Virus record (IMG/VR): IMGVR_UViG_3300028384_001071 | Location: 37,565-101,564 of that record | DNA from: a virus | Strand: one strand, 5' to 3' | Length of the DNA stretch: 64,000 nt | In this document: in pieces, positions 31,217 to 37,721 of the stretch | Layout of the letters: each line of letters starts with the position of its first letter | Numbering within the stretch: position 1 is the first letter of the stretch | Notes under the pieces: model-generated | The model's input: only the letters and a program-made list of their open reading frames with translations | Told to the model about the DNA's origin: nothing | The model's database searches: none | Program-made: the position numbers and the translations under genes

Positions 31217-31348
31217 CAACTGTTCAAAGTCGATGACACATCGGACCGAAATGAGGAGGCAACACATTAAGCATTAACATCCTACCCAAACGGATTGCAC
31301 ATCGAAAACGGACTCAACTGCAACATTCTGTTTGAGGTATTGTTCACC

Positions 31349-32452
31349 ATGAGTGACGCTGCTGCTACTACTACGAAGTCTGAACTGAAGGAAATCCCAC
31401 TGTCGATGATTCGAGAGAATCCTGTGGCCCTTCGAGACGTGAATCGTAACACTGAGAACTACATGGAGATCGTCGACTCGATCAAGACCCGTGGCGTTCT
31501 CAATCCAATCGTCGTCCGGGCGATGAAAGATCCGGAGACTGACGAAGAGTTCTACAGCCTGATTGACGGGCTGCACCGCTACACCGCATCTCAAGATGCT
31601 GGTAAGGAAACTATCCCTGCTCACATTACGAGCATGGAAGATGCTGATGTCCTTGTTGCACAGATCATTGGTAACATTCACCGCATCGAGACGCGACCTG
31701 TCGAATACTCGAAGCAGCTTCAGCGAATCCTCGCTCAAGACCCAATGCTGACGTCGGCACAACTCGCGAAACAACTCGGCAAGTCCACGACGTGGATCAC
31801 CGACCGTTTGAATTTGCGAAAGATTGACGACAACATCGCCAAGTTGGTCGATGAAGGCAAGATCAACTTGTCGAACGCATTCGCACTTTCGAAGCTGCCA
31901 TCGGAAGAGCAGGCAGACTTCGCTGACCGTGCGATCACGATGACACCTGCGGAATTCACCGCAACTGTCTCTGAGCGTAAGAAGGCGTTGGACAAAGCCC
32001 GCCGTGAGGGCAAGGCTGCGACCAAGGGCGAATTCGTTCCCCCGGTCCATATGCGAAAGTTGAAGGAAGTTCGAACAGAGTTCGAGAAGCCGGAAGTCGG
32101 ACCACACCTGCTCAAAGAGCACGGCGTCAAGACCCCGATGGATGCATTCGCACTGGGCGTCGCCTGGGTTCTGCACCAAGACCCGACATCAGTCGCCGTC
32201 GCGAAGCAGAAGGACGACGCACGGAAGCGAGAGCTTCAGGAGAAGCGGGACAAGGCGAAAGCCCAGCGAGCATCGAACAAGGCGTCACAAGCTGCGACAC
32301 GTGCAGCACGTCTTCAGGTCGAATCAGAACTGCTCGAAAAGGGAGCGGACGAAGCTACCATCAAGAAAGCACTCGACGAGTTCGATGCTGCGAACGGCAT
32401 GAAGGACGGCAAGTTCGTCAAGCCCGAGAAGACCGAAGGCGATGCTAAGTAG
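31349..32452 (+). CDS. ParB/Spo0J-family protein with C-terminal coiled coil
   Basis: SIKTRGVLNPIVVR, IDGLHRYTA and HTH AQLAKQLGKSTTWITDRL. Confidence 0.85.
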   Translation: MSDAAATTTKSELKEIPLSMIRENPVALRDVNRNTENYMEIVDSIKTRGVLNPIVVRAMKDPETDEEFYSLIDGLHRYTASQDAGKETIPAHITSMEDADVLVAQIIGNIHRIETRPVEYSKQLQRILAQDPMLTSAQLAKQLGKSTTWITDRLNLRKIDDNIAKLVDEGKINLSNAFALSKLPSEEQADFADRAITMTPAEFTATVSERKKALDKARREGKAATKGEFVPPVHMRKLKEVRTEFEKPEVGPHLLKEHGVKTPMDAFALGVAWVLHQDPTSVAVAKQKDDARKRELQEKRDKAKAQRASNKASQAATRAARLQVESELLEKGADEATIKKALDEFDAANGMKDGKFVKPEKTEGDAK

Positions 32453-32499: not shown

Positions 32500-33219
32500 A
32501 TGAAGACTATTCCAGCAGCTCCGTTCGCATCCGTATTCGGTGACGATGGCGGCTCCCTGATCTCACTTGCTGACTTGCAGGTGGGCGGTGAATTGACCAC
32601 TTCCGATGAGGACTTCGACAGTCTGATTACCTCGTCTTCCTTCCTACCTCGCGTCCAACTGTTTGGTGCAAACAGCAATGCTGTCACCGAAGAGAAGATC
32701 GGCCTCGGTCGATTCGGACTCGTGAAGTCGAAGGACGACATCGAAGACCTTGGTAAGACACTCGAATGTCTGCCAATTGCTTGGCGTTTCAAGGCGATGC
32801 AGATCGCCGATGGTGAAGTAGTCAGTAACTACGATCACGAATCCGACGAGTTCAAGCGTATCCAAGCGGAGTCTGAGGAAACCGATTCGGGAGCCATGTA
32901 TGGCATCGAGTTCCTCCTGTGGATTCCGGACATCAGTGGCTACGCCACTTACTTCCTGTCATCGAAGTCAAGTCGCCGTGAGGCGAAGCCGCTTCGAGCA
33001 CTGCTTGGAAAGGCAGCCTCCATCGAGGCTAACTTGGTCAAGACGAAGAAGTATGCGTGGCACGCTCCAAAGGTATCGTCAAGTGCGACACCATTCACGA
33101 ACATCCCTGATGGGGAAAGCGTTCGTGCTGAACTGGAGAAGTTCAAGAATCCTTCGTCATCGAAGACTGAAGGCACGACGGATGAGGAAGAGAAAGCGGT
33201 CGACGGAAGTCGCCGCTAG
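32500..33219 (+). CDS. Putative phage single-stranded DNA-binding protein
   Basis: FLPRVQL motif, beta-rich core and acidic C-terminal tail. Confidence 0.55.
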   Translation: MKTIPAAPFASVFGDDGGSLISLADLQVGGELTTSDEDFDSLITSSSFLPRVQLFGANSNAVTEEKIGLGRFGLVKSKDDIEDLGKTLECLPIAWRFKAMQIADGEVVSNYDHESDEFKRIQAESEETDSGAMYGIEFLLWIPDISGYATYFLSSKSSRREAKPLRALLGKAASIEANLVKTKKYAWHAPKVSSSATPFTNIPDGESVRAELEKFKNPSSSKTEGTTDEEEKAVDGSRR

Positions 33220-33226
33220 CGTATAC

Positions 33227-33284
33227 AGGGCCGGAGTCGATGGGTTATCGATGCTACTGAATCCCACCGACAACAACATGCCCT
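33227..33284 (+). ncRNA. Minimal Y-RNA-like hairpin A (normal orientation)
   Basis: AGGGC-CGGA-GTCGATGG-GTTATC...CCCACCGAC-AACAACAT-GCCCT. Confidence 0.7.
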
Positions 33285-33290
33285 AACTTT

Positions 33291-33420
33291 GAAGAGGTAG
33301 GCAACACGGTTAGCCGCGAGTAGTGTAGACCATGACATCAACATTCCCGCCATGCGGGACGGCGTCTATGGATTATCAATAAGGAACTCGTGTATGTTGG
33401 TTCGAATCCAACTCTCTTCA
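33291..33420 (+). ncRNA. tRNA-like RNA B with permuted Y-like helix in the anticodon loop
   Basis: Acceptor GAAGAGG/TCTCTTC-A; D-arm; stem CGAGT/ACTCG; T-arm GTTGG-TTCGAAT-CCAAC; insert TGTAGAC...CAACAT-TCCCGC-CAT-GCGGGA-CGGC-GTCTATG-GATTATC. Confidence 0.7.
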
Positions 33421-33490: not shown

Positions 33491-33611
33491 GTCAACGTAG
33501 TGTAATGGAAGCACGCTAAATCATGGTCTCCGACATATGCCTTCTGGGCCGGATGGAAGATCGTTATCGAATTAAAATCGAGTAGTCTAGGTTCGAATCC
33601 TAGCGTTGGCA
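33491..33611 (+). ncRNA. tRNA-like RNA D (UAA anticodon loop) interrupted by a 50-nt permuted Y-like module
   Basis: Acceptor GTCAACG/CGTTGGC-A; D-arm GTGT/GCAC; T-arm CTAGG-TTCGAAT-CCTAG; removing 33518-33567 gives CTCGA-ATTAAAA-TCGAG. Confidence 0.75.
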
Positions 33612-33633
33612 TCCCGAGGTCTCGGGTCTTGAA

Positions 33634-33870: not shown

Positions 33871-33934
33871 CGATCCCATTCAGTGCGTAACTGTTATGCT
33901 CGTAAATTCATCGAGCCGGAGGCGATCGGTTATC
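33871..33934 (+). ncRNA. Circularly permuted Y-like module E
   Basis: CGATCCC...TAT-GCTCG-loop-CGAGC-CGGA-GGCGATCG-GTTATC. Confidence 0.6.
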
Positions 33935-34006: not shown

Positions 34007-34055
34007 CGATTGTCGATGACATACCCGCCTGTCGGGTCGGACGATAATCGTTACC
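34007..34055 (+). ncRNA. Circularly permuted Y-like module E2
   Basis: CGATTGTCG-ATGACAT-ACCCG-CCTGT-CGGGT-CGGA-CGATAATCG-TTACC. Confidence 0.65.
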
Positions 34056-34169: not shown

Positions 34170-34264
34170 GGAACCGTTGCCTGTTGGTAGGCACCTGATT
34201 CTCATAACATGCCAAATAGGCCGGAGAGCATTAGTTATCGTTGGTTCGATTCCAATCGGTTCCA
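34170..34264 (+). ncRNA. tRNA-like RNA F whose anticodon arm is a permuted Y-like helix
   Basis: Acceptor GGAACCG/CGGTTCC-A; D-arm GCCT/AGGC; CTGATTCTC-ATAACAT-GCC-AAATA-GGC-CGGA-GAGCATTAG; TTATC as variable loop; T-arm GTTGG-TTCGATT-CCAAT. Confidence 0.8.
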
Positions 34265-34334: not shown

Positions 34335-34430
34335 TTCGATGGTGGTAACTCGCTGGGAGCGGGCAGCGTACGATCTGGATGATCATTCGTGGAGCAAAGA
34401 AGCAGGTTCGATTCCTGCACCAACATCGAA
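34335..34430 (+). ncRNA. Degenerate tRNA-like element
   Basis: Long closing stem TTCGATG-G-TGGT/ACCA-A-CATCGAA with T-arm GCAGG-TTCGATT-CCTGC; no canonical anticodon arm. Confidence 0.5.
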
Positions 34431-34865: not shown

Positions 34866-34971
34866 AGGGCCGGATGATTGATGGTTATCGCTGCCAAACC
34901 TTAGCGACGGTGGAGAGGCCACGTAATGGGTTCGATTCCCACGTTAATCCCGTCATTCTCTAACATGCCTT
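34866..34971 (+). ncRNA. Y-RNA-like RNA G (normal orientation, internal T-loop hairpin; YrlA-like)
   Basis: AGGGC-CGGA-TGATTGATG-GTTATC...TGGG-TTCGATT-CCCA...CCGTCATTC-TCTAACAT-GCCTT. Confidence 0.75.
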
Positions 34972-35103
34972 ACTTTCTATGAATGAAATCCCAGATGAGT
35001 TCAGCGGTACGCTGAGCAACAGATGAAGAAGATCAGGAGGCAGCACTGCTCGCAGTGGCAGCCCCTGATCTATATTGCATCGAATATCTCTTGAGAGTCT
35101 TCA

Positions 35104-35294: not shown

Positions 35295-36881
35295 ATGCCA
35301 GCAGGAAACCTCGCGAAGCACGTATCAACCCGCCGAACACCTCAAACCCAACGGTCACAACCTGATGAGGTTGTGAACAACGCAGGTGGATTCGTCTTCC
35401 AACTCGACAAGTGGAAGCGTCTGGAACGCTTCCTGATCCTCGGCTCAGACGGCGGGACTTATTACGCCAATGAGCGAGATCTAACCATCGACAATGCACA
35501 AGTCATCAACGACTGTGCTTCCGAAGATGGACGTAAGACAGTTGATGTCATCTGCGAGATTTCGCAGGCCGGACGAGCACCGAAGAACGACCCAGCCATC
35601 TTCGCGATGGCAATGCTCGCAGGTTATGCCGATGACAATACTCGCAAGTATGCACTTGCGAATCTGAACCGAGTGTGTCGTATCGGTACACACCTCTTCC
35701 AGTTCGTCGATGCTGTCGAGAACTTCCGAGGATGGGGACGTGGACTGCGTAGAGCAGTCGGAGCGTGGTACACGGACAAGGATGCCAATCGACTGGCATA
35801 CCAAGTTACGAAGTACCAACAACGAGGTGGCTGGTCACACCGGGATGTACTCCGGTTGGCACACCCAGTCACTGAGAACGCCGAACTAACCGATGTCATC
35901 AAGTATGCAGCCGGGAAGTCCCATGATGGGACTAACCGCCTGATTGAAGGCGTCGAAGAAGTAAAGCGAGCGGGTAGTGCCAGCGAAGTGGTTCGGCTCA
36001 TTACCGAATATGGCCTCGTCCGAGAGCATGTACCAACCGAATGGTTGGGTGACGTGCAGGTGTGGGAAGCTCTCGTCGAGAAGATGCCAATCACTGCGAT
36101 GATCCGGAACTTGGGTAAGATGACCAGCAATGGTCTCCTCACTCCGATGAGCAACGCAGCGATGAAGGTCATCGCCAATCTTCGCGACGTCGAGAAACTG
36201 CGGCAGGGACGGGTACACCCGCTCGCTGTTCTTACCGCAATGAAGGTTTACTCTCAAGGTAAGGGAATCCGTGGCAGCCTGTCTTGGACACCTGTCAGTC
36301 AGATTTCCGATGCCTTGGACGACGCCTTCTATGCTTCGTTCGGAGTGATCGAGCCAGCCAATAAGCGGACGCTGATTGGTCTCGATGTGTCTGGATCAAT
36401 GTACGGAGGTTGGGGTGGTGATATCCAAGGAAGCCCACTCTGTGCAGCAGAAGCCTCAGCCGCAATGGCAATGGTTTCTGCAAGAACCGAGCCGTTCTTC
36501 CAGTTGATGGCTTTCTCCGATACGTTCCGTGACGTTACGTTCGGGGCCAAGTCAAGACTGGATGATGTACTTTCACGAACACGAAATATGACCTTCGGTT
36601 GTACTGACTGTTCACTTCCAATGATCTATGCGTCGGAGAACAACATTGATGTTGACACGTTCATGGTGCTCACCGACAGTGAGACGTATGCCGGAAGTAT
36701 CAAACCTCACCAAGCAATCCAACAATATCGTCAGAAGACGGGCATCCCTGCGAAGCTCGTTGTCGTCGGTATGACAGCGACCGGATTCAGCATTGCTGAT
36801 CCGAACGATGCCGGAATGCTTGATGTAGTGGGGTTTGACACGGCCGCTCCAAACATCATTTCCGACTTCTCGCGAAGCTAA
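35295..36881 (+). CDS. rsr: Ro60/TROVE-domain RNA-binding protein
   Basis: NNAGGFVF, RFLILGSDGGTYY, TKYQQRGGWSHRDVLRLAHP, MPITAMIRNLGKMT; vWA MIDAS DVSGSM, TDCSLPM, TDSET; GMLDVVGFD. Confidence 0.95.
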   Translation: MPAGNLAKHVSTRRTPQTQRSQPDEVVNNAGGFVFQLDKWKRLERFLILGSDGGTYYANERDLTIDNAQVINDCASEDGRKTVDVICEISQAGRAPKNDPAIFAMAMLAGYADDNTRKYALANLNRVCRIGTHLFQFVDAVENFRGWGRGLRRAVGAWYTDKDANRLAYQVTKYQQRGGWSHRDVLRLAHPVTENAELTDVIKYAAGKSHDGTNRLIEGVEEVKRAGSASEVVRLITEYGLVREHVPTEWLGDVQVWEALVEKMPITAMIRNLGKMTSNGLLTPMSNAAMKVIANLRDVEKLRQGRVHPLAVLTAMKVYSQGKGIRGSLSWTPVSQISDALDDAFYASFGVIEPANKRTLIGLDVSGSMYGGWGGDIQGSPLCAAEASAAMAMVSARTEPFFQLMAFSDTFRDVTFGAKSRLDDVLSRTRNMTFGCTDCSLPMIYASENNIDVDTFMVLTDSETYAGSIKPHQAIQQYRQKTGIPAKLVVVGMTATGFSIADPNDAGMLDVVGFDTAAPNIISDFSRS

Positions 36882-36927: not shown

Positions 36928-37209
36928 ATGGTTGAATTCAAAACACCCAAAGCCAATAGCCCGATCAATCGGGAAAGACTCGCACTATTCCTATCCCCGA
37001 TGATCGAAGGATCATTCACCACGAACTTCCGCCCTTATACGATCAACAATGATGACTGCCATTGGTCATTAGCATCATCGAATAATTGGTTCTTGACTAT
37101 CGCAGAAGACAACATGTCATTCATGATACGTCATCGATACTCCGAAGACAAAGCGGAAGCCTTCGCTATGTGGATCGATGCACGTACAGGGTACATAAGG
37201 ATGAAATGA
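36928..37209 (+). CDS. Hypothetical protein
   Basis: ORF coupled to the next gene by an ATGA overlap. Confidence 0.55.
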   Translation: MVEFKTPKANSPINRERLALFLSPMIEGSFTTNFRPYTINNDDCHWSLASSNNWFLTIAEDNMSFMIRHRYSEDKAEAFAMWIDARTGYIRMK

Positions 37210-37721
37210 CACCTCAAGCATTCCTGATCGGACGTCCTGATTTCGACGTCGATAACTACCTTGTAGCTGCAAAGCAAGCACTCGGGTACAGCTTGACATT
37301 ACCTCAAGGTCGAGGCAAGCACGAGCCATCATCGGTCTTAACGATGCTAGCTCAGCTACAGAATGGAAACGCAACGATAGCTAACACCCTTGAAGATCCG
37401 GGGCATCTACTCCGGCACCTACACTACACATTCCTCATTGCTTGCGATCCATCCACTCGTGTCGACCTAATTCAGAGAACACCACTAGCCATCGAGTACA
37501 CCTCAACCGGGCGTGGAATGGACATGGCAGTCTTATCAGGAAACCTTGAAGAGTGGCGAACCTCTGTGATCAATTGCTGCTCTGATCAATCACCGTATCA
37601 AACACGTCTAATGTTTGATGTAATCCTTGTCAAGTTCGAAGGCGAAGGCTTAGCGAAACTATGGTCGAGGTATCAGAAGAAGACAATGCCCGATCAAACA
37701 ATCAGACTCATCGAGAGGTAA
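37206..37721 (+). CDS. Degenerate ThyX-fold-like protein
   Basis: HLHYTFLI and LSGNLEEWR...CC...TRLMF echo ThyX segments, but the RHR motif is absent. Confidence 0.4.
   Translation: MTPQAFLIGRPDFDVDNYLVAAKQALGYSLTLPQGRGKHEPSSVLTMLAQLQNGNATIANTLEDPGHLLRHLHYTFLIACDPSTRVDLIQRTPLAIEYTSTGRGMDMAVLSGNLEEWRTSVINCCSDQSPYQTRLMFDVILVKFEGEGLAKLWSRYQKKTMPDQTIRLIER

What the first reader, a model, noticed from the sequence alone, without database searches (positions are those of the whole stretch)
33491..33611. Removing a 50-nt Y-like module from RNA D restores a 71-nt cloverleaf with a UAA anticodon
Seen: deleting 33518-33567 joins CT and CGA into the stem CTCGA/TCGAG around the loop ATTAAAA, with a short 4-nt variable loop that is atypical for Leu. 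Even unspliced, TCGA-ATTAAAA-TCGA can form. The insert is far too short for a group I or II intron. Inference: either a Ro-bindable handle grafted onto a tRNA that still displays an anticodon loop, or a new type of protein-dependent intron.
Basis: partly seen in the sequence, partly recalled or inferred. Interest (0 to 1): 0.8.

Follow-up and report, generated by a model that had tools for sequence, protein, structure and literature searches.

The report
tRNA-shaped Y RNA keeping anticodon arm
This phage gene encodes a tRNA-shaped RNA in which a likely docking helix for the phage's own Ro60 protein branches out of the anticodon stem while the anticodon-like loop stays intact; it is probably a Ro60 partner RNA and not a tRNA with a new kind of intron, and dozens of Ro60 loci in other phages and bacteria carry the same apparently undescribed design.

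Summary
Deleting 33518-33567 from 33491-33611 gives a 71-nt sequence that ARAGORN calls tRNA-Leu(UAA). The uncut RNA is called neither by default ARAGORN nor by Rfam.

It is more than chance. Only 0.7% of shuffles of the middle stretch give such a split stem and loop. In 48 related RNAs beside Ro60 genes of other viral and metagenome contigs, the two pairs that bridge the insert are kept in 99% of cells, with compensatory changes. About half of these RNAs keep a 7-nt loop with U33 and a purine at 37. Bacterial genomes have them too.

The insert carries the YrlA hallmarks: a GCCGGA motif, a bulged helix and UUAU. Circularly permuted, D aligns end to end with phage YrlA RNAs. D is therefore a YrlA-type Y RNA in native tRNA order, with open acceptor ends and a closed Ro helix, 1.7 kb upstream of phage Ro60.

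The intron reading is not supported. There is no bulge-helix-bulge motif, and the phage record encodes no splicing endonuclease or RtcB. The same junction occurs in YrlA, where the "insert" forms the RNA's ends. Decoding is unlikely, because UAA sits in a class-I, tRNA-Arg/Trp-like body.

An earlier follow-up in this scan reported the related open-acceptor layout for the neighbouring RNA at 34170-34264.

The parts
33491..33497 (+). acceptor stem, 5' strand (GUCAACG)
   Evidence: Pairs 7/7 with 33604-33610. This helix is 99% paired with changes on both sides at every position in the 48 relatives.
33500..33514 (+). D arm (GUGU-AAUGGAA-GCAC)
   Evidence: The same D-arm type occurs in L025:1727-1852, L009:3532-3660 and in phage tRNA-Arg and tRNA-Trp.
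33516..33517 (+). positions 27-28 (CU): the 5' strand of the two anticodon-stem pairs that bridge the insert, pairing with AG at 33581-33582
   Evidence: 27:43 and 28:42 are 99% paired in 48 relatives, with 16 and 27 sequences changed on both sides. In an anchor-based test not fitted to the pairs, 15 of 18 had both pairs, p<=5e-5. The energy model gives these pairs a low probability in D itself.
33518..33567 (+). 50-nt Y module: linker AAAUC, a closed Ro-type helix, and UUAU
   Evidence: After circular permutation it aligns collinearly with phage YrlA RNAs.
33523..33564 (+). Y helix hairpin: upper stem, asymmetric internal loop, short lower stem GCC(U)/(G)GGC closed by a small loop (UCU in the fold)
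   Evidence: Minimum-energy fold. In relatives the lower stem is 96-98% paired and the upper stem about 83%.
33548..33553 (+). GCCGGA, the counterpart of the GNCGAA motif that Chen et al. 2014 tie to Ro60/Rsr binding
   Evidence: Read directly from the sequence. Cashline YrlA has the same GCCGGA. The motif is defined in PMC4201824.
33564..33567 (+). UUAU, the conserved YUAY of YrlA RNAs
   Evidence: G73, U74, U75 and A76 are invariant in alignment A4. YUAY is described in PMC4201824.
33568..33582 (+). anticodon-like hairpin and 3' strand: CGA, loop AUUAAAA (33571-33577; 'anticodon' UAA at 33573-33575), UCGAG
   Evidence: The 7-nt loop has U33 in 22 of 24 and R37 in 24 of 24 relatives from viral and metagenome contigs, and both in 19 of 19 bacterial relatives.
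33583..33586 (+). 4-nt variable loop (UAGU)
   Evidence: The same GUAGU context occurs in phage tRNA-Arg and tRNA-Trp.
33587..33603 (+). T arm (CUAGG-UUCGAAU-CCUAG)
33604..33611 (+). acceptor stem 3' strand (CGUUGGC) and discriminator A; no encoded CCA
35295..36881 (+). phage Ro60 gene (528 aa; TROVE plus Ro60 vWA domains), the presumed protein partner
   Evidence: Pfam TROVE 6e-47 and vWA_Ro60 5e-64. phrog_850, RNA-binding protein, 2e-85.

Best explanation
RNA D is a Y RNA of the YrlA kind built in native tRNA order. It has open acceptor ends, a D arm, a T arm and a 5-bp anticodon-like stem with a 7-nt loop. A closed Ro60-binding helix branches from the 5' strand of that stem between positions 28 and 29, forming a three-way junction. 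Shown here: the anatomy, its homology to YrlA module by module, its conservation with covariation, and its linkage to Ro60 genes. Inferred: it is transcribed with the neighbouring Y RNAs and tRNAs, cut out by the host's tRNA end-processing enzymes and given CCA, stays about 121-124 nt long, and docks phage Ro60 through the GCCGGA bulged helix. In this picture the tRNA body and anticodon-like loop are presented to a tRNA-binding factor. The loop is kept for its shape and not for reading UUA codons.
For: An intact Ro60 gene lies 1.7 kb downstream on the same strand. Seven other Y-type modules lie in the same array. One of them matches the nematode sbRNA family ceN72-3_ceN74-2 (nematode Y-RNA homologues, from my own knowledge) at 36 bits, E 2.8e-5.

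D carries the GCCGGA and UUAU hallmarks defined for YrlA. Circularly permuted, D aligns end to end with the FuzzBuster, Ava3 and Cashline YrlA RNAs at 49-54% identity, including the GCUAAA linker after the D arm.

A covariance model built on D-like RNAs finds 48 hits of 68 bits or more, all on the Ro60 strand, among the 164 viral and metagenome Ro60 loci (80 IMG/VR viral contigs, 4 GenBank phages, 80 metagenome contigs) searched together with this window. It finds 59 more hits (>=62 bits; 56 on the Ro60 strand) in 80 bacterial Ro60 loci. In the phage's own 101-kb record it hits only this array.

On the 48-sequence alignment, 93.9% of cells pair against 66.6% after shuffling and at most 49% when partners are slid. 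The two bridging pairs are 99% paired with many double changes. A test anchored only on the inner hairpin gave both bridging pairs in 15 of 18 open-acceptor RNAs and in 19 of 21 canonical YrlA RNAs, each with p<=5e-5.

Against decoding: the D arm, variable loop and T arm are 82% identical to phage tRNA-Arg(UCU) and tRNA-Trp, which are class-I bodies, while the tRNA-Leu of the same phage is 87 nt. Relatives carry Ser anticodons with 4-5-nt variable loops, and the discriminator is C in 14 of 24. UUA is the rarest Leu codon in the window, 6.5 per 1000.
Against: No binding, expression or end-mapping data exist for D.

D's lower Y stem is only 3-4 bp, against 5-6 bp in most relatives.

The fold of the uncut RNA is not unusually stable (z = -1.09).

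In D itself the energy model gives the two bridging pairs under 1% probability, because U77 can replace U27.

The covariation counts come from an alignment fitted to the model.

The strict conservation of U33 and R37 is what a working anticodon loop would also show, so a tRNA-like activity of the loop is not excluded.

No close ortholog of D was found. The nearest, L025:1727-1852, differs in every stem.
Confidence: 0.7

Rival explanations
1. Working tRNA with a Ro60 handle. In this reading the uncut RNA is matured, aminoacylated and takes part in decoding, or at least binds an aminoacyl-tRNA synthetase, EF-Tu or the ribosome, while carrying Ro60.
For: The acceptor stem is open and fully paired, and the discriminator A73 is the Leu identity base in E. 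coli (my own knowledge). The 7-nt loop keeps U33 and a purine at 37 across the family. The element sits inside a phage tRNA array.
Against: UAA sits in a class-I body that resembles tRNA-Arg and tRNA-Trp, whereas bacterial and phage tRNA-Leu are class II; the one checked here is 87 nt. A35 replaces C35, which ArgRS needs (my own knowledge). Relatives pair Ser, Cys, Asn and other anticodons with bodies lacking the matching identity elements, and most have discriminator C. Sister RNAs in the same array have no usable anticodon loop (B at 33291-33420, G at 34170-34264). A bulky helix on the anticodon stem would probably clash with the ribosome (inference).
Confidence: 0.12
2. Intron-bearing tRNA gene. 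In this reading the 50-nt module is removed by a protein-dependent cut-and-join reaction to give a 71-nt tRNA-Leu(UAA).
For: In-silico removal gives a perfect cloverleaf. The joined sequence aligns without a gap across the junction to real phage tRNAs. Wang et al. [quoted passage not shown]
Against: The insert lies at 28/29 in the stem. No bulge-helix-bulge can be drawn, because the 3' exon start CGAA has no complement at the 5' end of the insert (read). The phage record has no match to tRNA_int_endo or RtcB, and splicing endonucleases are not reported in bacteria. At 50 nt it is too short for a group I or II intron. The insert keeps Ro-site features under covariation, which an intron would not need. 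The same junction exists in canonical YrlA, where excision cannot give a tRNA. The product would have mismatched identity.
Confidence: 0.04
3. Decaying tRNA gene disrupted by insertion of a mobile Y-like hairpin, now without function beyond perhaps serving as an RNase P/Z punctuation mark that releases the flanking Y RNA C and tRNA-Gln.
For: Free-standing closed Y hairpins exist in the same array at 33883-33934 and 34008-34055. The Y helix is found on at least three different tRNA body types. D's lower Y stem is short.
Against: All five helices of D are intact. The design is conserved with compensatory changes in viral contigs and in bacterial genomes assigned to several phyla, which argues for selection.
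Confidence: 0.08

Closest known systems
YrlA Y RNAs (Rfam RF02553; Chen et al. 2014, PMC4201824; Wang et al. 2018, 10.1101/312249)
   Same: Both have a GNCGAA-type motif on the 5' strand of a bulged helix, followed by YUAY. Both have tRNA-like D and T arms and a hairpin between YUAY and the T arm. Both have a GCUAAA linker between the D arm and the 3' strand of the Y helix, and both are encoded within 4 kb of Ro60 on the same strand. Permuted D aligns over its whole length with phage YrlA RNAs.
   Different: The strand order is circularly permuted. D runs acceptor-D-(Y helix)-anticodon hairpin-T-acceptor, with free acceptor ends and a loop-closed Y helix. YrlA has the T arm 5' of the D arm, a loop-closed acceptor stem, and a Y helix made by its own ends. 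RF02553 does not score D. The literature calls the hairpin a variable arm and says S. Typhimurium YrlA lacks an anticodon loop. Here the hairpin behaves as the anticodon arm, in D and in many canonical YrlA RNAs alike.
Neighbouring RNA at 34170-34264 of this window
   Same: It is also an open-acceptor tRNA body carrying a closed Ro-type helix, in the same array next to the same Ro60 gene.
   Different: There the Ro helix replaces the whole anticodon arm and UUAUC serves as the variable loop. D keeps a 5-bp anticodon-like stem and a 7-nt loop, and the helix is a side branch.
tRNA genes with introns (group I introns in bacterial anticodon loops; archaeal and eukaryal bulge-helix-bulge introns, some at non-canonical positions)
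   Same: Deleting an internal segment restores a cloverleaf.
   Different: The insert is only 50 nt, there is no bulge-helix-bulge motif, no endonuclease or ligase gene was found in the phage record, and the insert is itself a conserved protein-binding module.
Circularly permuted tRNA genes of red algae and an archaeon (as discussed in Wang et al. 2018)
   Same: They show that tRNA-shaped RNAs exist in both strand orders, related by permutation.
   Different: Those are precursors that are processed into ordinary tRNAs. Here the two orders are both Y RNAs, with no evidence of interconversion.
[quoted passage not shown]
   Same: It is a predicted tRNA-like RNA said to resemble an authentic tRNA closely, linked to RNA-repair genes and occasionally found next to Rsr.
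   Different: The source paper was not held, so I could not check whether b7a-tRNA carries a Ro helix. Nothing in the description available to me mentions one.

Membership tests
YrlA (RF02553) | GNCGAA(N0-1)G-type motif near the start of the 5' strand of the Ro-binding helix | tested here: met
   GCCGGA at 33548-33553 has one change from GNCGAA. The same variant occurs in Gordonia phage Cashline YrlA.
YrlA (RF02553) | conserved YUAY after the helix | tested here: met
   UUAU at 33564-33567. The preceding G and UUA are invariant in alignment A4.
YrlA (RF02553) | tRNA-like D and T arms with the elbow nucleotides | tested here: met
   GG in the D loop and UUCGAAU in the T loop. The D stem is GUGU/GCAC and not the usual GCUC/GAGC.
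YrlA (RF02553) | T arm 5' of D arm, acceptor-like stem closed by a loop, Ro helix formed by the RNA's 5' and 3' ends | tested here: not met
   D has the opposite arrangement: D arm 5' of T arm, acceptor open, Ro helix closed by a small loop.
YrlA (RF02553) | score at or above the Rfam gathering cut-off (69 bits) | tested here: not met
   There was no RF02553 match over D even at E<=10. This is expected, because a covariance model cannot align a circular permutation.
YrlA (RF02553) | encoded within about 4 kb of Ro60 on the same strand | tested here: met
   D ends at 33611 and Ro60 starts at 35295, both on the + strand.
YrlA (RF02553) | bound by Ro60/Rsr | not testable with these tools
   Needs co-immunoprecipitation or a gel-shift assay.
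tRNA (RF00005) / tRNA-Leu | contiguous cloverleaf scoring above the family cut-off | tested here: not met
   The uncut RNA gets an Rfam partial hit of 21.7 bits against a 29-bit cut-off and no default ARAGORN call. Only the in-silico deletion is called.
tRNA (RF00005) / tRNA-Leu | long variable arm (class II), as in bacterial and phage tRNA-Leu | tested here: not met
   D has a 4-nt variable loop. For comparison, the tRNA-Leu of phage Melville is 87 nt.
tRNA (RF00005) / tRNA-Leu | aminoacylation and decoding | not testable with these tools
   Needs charging assays.
bulge-helix-bulge intron | two 3-nt bulges separated by a 4-bp helix formed between the 5' end of the intron and the start of the 3' exon | tested here: not met
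   The 3' exon starts CGAA and the insert starts AAAUCAUG, so no 4-bp complement exists. The unpaired stretches sit at a three-way junction.
bulge-helix-bulge intron | splicing endonuclease and RtcB-type ligase available | tested here: not met
   PF01974 and PF01139 have no match in the 86%-complete phage record. The host is unknown.
group I / group II intron | catalytic core of a few hundred nucleotides or more | tested here: not met
   The insert is 50 nt, and there is no Rfam intron match.

The most novel reading that the evidence does not exclude
RNA D and its many relatives may be CCA-ended, Ro60-tethered tRNA look-alikes whose preserved anticodon stem-loop is the working part. The loop could act as bait or as a competitive inhibitor for enzymes that attack or inspect tRNA anticodon loops, such as host anticodon nucleases used against phages. 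Ro60, and through it an exonuclease or ligase, would be held on the same molecule. Hughes et al. 2020 proposed that YrlA might inhibit an anticodon nuclease. An anticodon loop on the Y RNA would make that idea concrete. A corollary is that the YrlA 'variable arm' is really the anticodon arm, and that YrlA arose from tandem copies of D-type RNAs read from one Ro helix to the next.
Probability: 0.15. Interest if true: 0.85.

Novelty: new variant of a known kind. Interest (0 to 1): 0.62.

Why it matters
Y RNAs are thought to tether Ro60 to other factors, but what the tRNA-like half of bacterial Y RNAs recognises is unknown.

First, this RNA and its relatives show that the tRNA half can be a nearly complete tRNA. 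It has free acceptor ends and an anticodon-like loop under selection (U33 and R37 kept while the three 'anticodon' bases vary). That narrows the candidate partners to factors that read the anticodon arm or the acceptor end, and it can be tested with simple mutants.

Second, the hairpin published as the YrlA 'variable arm' behaves as an interrupted anticodon arm.

Third, the native-order form supplies a missing intermediate for the origin of YrlA from tRNA. The steps would be insertion of a Ro helix into one tRNA, then tandem duplication.

For phage biology, it adds a class of tRNA-array genes that annotation pipelines miss or mislabel as intron-bearing tRNAs.

Tried and rejected
- **The look-up of encoding contigs was closed.** The contigs of the two closest Ro60 homologues, P0002 (67%) and P0003 (64%), could not be fetched. 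No true ortholog of D was examined.
- **A single-protein scan of viral contigs with the phage Ro60 found nothing.** The scan with an alignment worked.
- **Uninterrupted or close relatives of D.** blastn of the locus against GenBank phages found only ordinary tRNAs, none over D. blastn-short of full, joined and insert sequences against all fetched loci gave no hit at E<=0.01. The joined 71-mer matched only generic phage tRNA-Arg, Gln and Trp at 77-82%.
- **RNAalifold on the MAFFT alignment** recovered only the acceptor, D and T stems and part of the lower Y stem. I wrote the structure for the model by hand.
- **The reading 'Y helix = anticodon stem, hairpin = class-II variable arm'** is the published YrlA labelling, and I set it aside. 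The hairpin plus the two bridging pairs make exactly 5 bp around a 7-nt U33/R37 loop. The bridging pairs covary. The joined sequence aligns across the junction to real tRNAs.
- **Promoter and terminator scans** were at shuffle level and gave no information.
- **Papers not held.** The reviews by Sim and Wolin (2018) and Sim et al. (2020), and Burroughs and Aravind (2016), were not available. I cannot exclude that they mention this layout.

Full report
**What is there.** The window is part of a 101.5-kb IMG/VR virus record. Between a ParB gene (31295-32452) and an intact Ro60 gene (35295-36881; TROVE 6e-47, Ro60 vWA 5e-64) lies a 1.7-kb RNA array. ARAGORN and Rfam find five ordinary tRNAs in it: Gln, Met, Ala, Asn and Asp. 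A permissive Rfam search adds two items. The first is a Y RNA at 33222-33288, matching the nematode family ceN72-3_ceN74-2 at 36 bits, E 2.8e-5. The second is a tRNA with a 27-nt insert at 34170-34264, at 36.4 bits. A motif scan finds eight modules of the type CGRN...UUAYC.

**The observation.** RNA D (33491-33611) is as described. It has a 7-bp acceptor stem, D arm GUGU-AAUGGAA-GCAC, T arm CUAGG-UUCGAAU-CCUAG and discriminator A. Removing 33518-33567 gives a 71-mer that ARAGORN calls tRNA-Leu(taa). The uncut RNA is not called by default settings, and Rfam tRNA reaches only 21.7 bits on its 3' part. The uncut RNA folds into a 42-nt hairpin (33523-33564) followed by UCGA-AUUAAAA-UCGA. Only 0.7% of dinucleotide shuffles of the 71-nt middle stretch give any split 5-bp stem plus a 7-nt loop with U33 and R37 in frame.

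**What the insert is.** Its 5' strand reads GGGCCGGA...GUUAU and its 3' strand reads ...CCGACAUAUGCC. The order is reversed and the helix is closed by a small loop. These are the GNCGAA-like motif and the YUAY that Chen et al. 2014 defined for YrlA. Canonical YrlA RNAs upstream of Ro60 in Gordonia phage Cashline, Microbacterium phage FuzzBuster and Mycobacterium phage Ava3 have the same elements. If D is cut in the loop of its Y helix and joined at its acceptor ends, it aligns collinearly with those three YrlA RNAs at 49-54% identity. The shared order is Ro motif, UUAY, hairpin, variable loop, T arm, acceptor, UA, D arm, GCUAAA linker and 3' strand. D is thus a circular permutation of YrlA. 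Put the other way round, YrlA is a permutation of a tRNA like D.

**Relatives.** An alignment of Ro60 homologues retrieved three sets of 80 loci:
- 80 viral loci;
- 80 metagenome loci;
- 80 bacterial genome loci.

ARAGORN with introns allowed, plus my own scan for open-acceptor tRNA shapes containing UUAY, found many D-like RNAs. I built a covariance model from 13 of them using a hand-written structure. Searching the window together with the 4 GenBank phage loci and the 160 viral and metagenome loci, it finds 48 hits of 68 bits or more, all on the Ro60 strand. It finds 59 hits of 62 bits or more in the bacterial loci; 56 of these lie on the Ro60 strand and three, all in L189, on the opposite strand. 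The top 36 that I parsed include genomes labelled Polyangiaceae, Armatimonadota, Chloroflexota, Cyanobacteria, Brocadia, Janthinobacterium and others. In the phage's own record the model hits only this array.

**The split stem is real.** On the 48-sequence alignment, 93.9% of cells pair, against 66.6% after shuffling and at most 49% with slid partners. The two pairs that bridge the insert (27:43 and 28:42) are 99% paired, with 16 and 27 sequences changed on both sides. That alignment is fitted to the model, so I ran a second test anchored only on the T arm, the D arm and the inner 3-bp hairpin. Both bridging pairs form in 15 of 18 distinct open-acceptor RNAs, against a permutation mean of 6.6 and a maximum of 13 in 20000 permutations. 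The three failures are mis-parses. Both pairs also form in 19 of 21 canonical YrlA RNAs.

Many relatives need position 28 for the pairing, for example CG|CCA...UGG|CG. Others are split after three nucleotides, for example ACG|GC...GC|CGU. Of the 48 RNAs, 24 are D-type. Thirteen carry the Y helix further along, with four or five stem nucleotides lying 5' of it, as in RNA B of this window. Eleven are other variants. In D-type RNAs the 7-nt loop has U33 in 22 of 24 and R37 in 24 of 24. In 19 bacterial examples it has both in all 19. The three middle bases vary freely.

**A consequence for YrlA.** The hairpin that the literature labels the YrlA 'V arm' behaves as an anticodon arm interrupted by the Ro helix. 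This holds in both strand orders. Wang et al. 2018 state that S. Typhimurium YrlA lacks an anticodon loop and place the T arm 5' of the D arm. In the library I could search, I found no description of the native-order form or of this reading.

**Not an intron.**
- The insert lies in the stem at 28/29.
- No bulge-helix-bulge can be drawn.
- The phage record has no tRNA splicing endonuclease, RtcB or CCA-adding enzyme.
- The insert is itself under covariation.
- In canonical YrlA the same 'insert' is formed by the RNA's ends.

**Probably not a decoder.**
- The joined sequence is 82% identical to phage tRNA-Arg(UCU) and tRNA-Trp, which are class-I bodies.
- The nearest relative, L025:1727-1852, carries UCU.
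- Real tRNA-Leu is class II.
- Relatives combine Ser, Cys, Asn and other anticodons with 4-5-nt variable loops and mostly discriminator C.
- UUA is the rarest Leu codon in the window.

**Uncertainties.**
- Ro60 binding, expression and the RNA's ends are all inferred.
- In D itself U77 can take the place of U27. The energy model prefers that fold without the bridging pairs, -31.1 against -26.2 kcal/mol.
- Which two helices stack at the junction is unknown.
- The function of the preserved loop is open. Hughes et al. 2020 suggested that YrlA might inhibit an anticodon nuclease. A Y RNA that actually displays an anticodon loop would suit such a role, but this is speculation.

**Verdict.** The handle-on-a-tRNA reading is supported, and the new-intron reading is not. 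D is a new variant of a known kind: a native-order, anticodon-arm-bearing YrlA-type Y RNA, widespread beside Ro60 genes. An earlier follow-up in this scan had reported the open-acceptor layout for the neighbouring RNA at 34170-34264. The retained and interrupted anticodon arm, and its presence in canonical YrlA, are what this report adds.

Noticed in passing
window 33222-33288: A minimal Y RNA directly after the stop codon of the upstream ORF matches the nematode sbRNA family ceN72-3_ceN74-2 at 36 bits (cut-off 38, E 2.8e-5). It is closer to that nematode model than to the bacterial YrlA model.
   Followed up: partly
window 33291-33420: RNA B is an open-acceptor tRNA body with an intact 5-bp stem CGAGU/ACUCG. 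Its loop holds a closed Y helix followed by AAUAAGGA. Thirteen of the 48 relatives have this layout.
   Followed up: partly
window 34866-34972: This Y RNA is in the canonical strand order (GGGCCGGA...GGUUAUC, hairpin, a T arm GUGGG-UUCGAUU-CCCAC, then the 3' strand ...CUAACAUGCC). No clear D arm or acceptor stem is visible. It lies 320 nt upstream of Ro60.
   Followed up: no
window 34338-34427: A possible further tRNA-like element has a T arm GCAGG-UUCGAUU-CCUGC and a roughly 10-bp terminal stem (CGAUGGUGGU/ACCAACAUCG). Rfam tRNA-Sec scores it at only 21.9 bits (E 0.21), and ARAGORN does not call it.
   Followed up: no
window 33613-33626: A small hairpin CCCGA-GGUC-UCGGG fills most of the 22-nt spacer between D and tRNA-Gln. 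It has no clear U tract.
   Followed up: no
L184:5882-7526 (Polyangiaceae MAG); also L083:6295-6875 and L163:207-673: These loci hold tandem arrays of three to six native-order tRNA/Y chimeras downstream of Ro60. Reading from one Y helix to the next across two copies gives the YrlA strand order, which suggests how the permuted form could arise.
   Followed up: partly
L131:683-813, L135:127-267, L147:78-209: In these relatives the D-arm position is occupied by a second T-arm-like hairpin (GCAGG-UUCGACU-CCUGC).
   Followed up: no
L025:1727-1852, L009:3532-3660, L023:5787-5907, L016:3741-3837 compared with most other relatives: The Ro helix sits on at least three or four different tRNA body types: D arms GUGUAAUGG.AGCAC, GUCUAAAGGCAGGAC and GCCU..GGUUAGGC, as well as the common GCUCAGU.GGUAGAGC. 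This hints at repeated grafting or at recombination with tRNA genes.
   Followed up: partly
window 32500-33219 and 37086-37721: The ORFs flanking the RNA array and Ro60 (239 aa and 211 aa) have no Pfam or PHROG match.
   Followed up: partly
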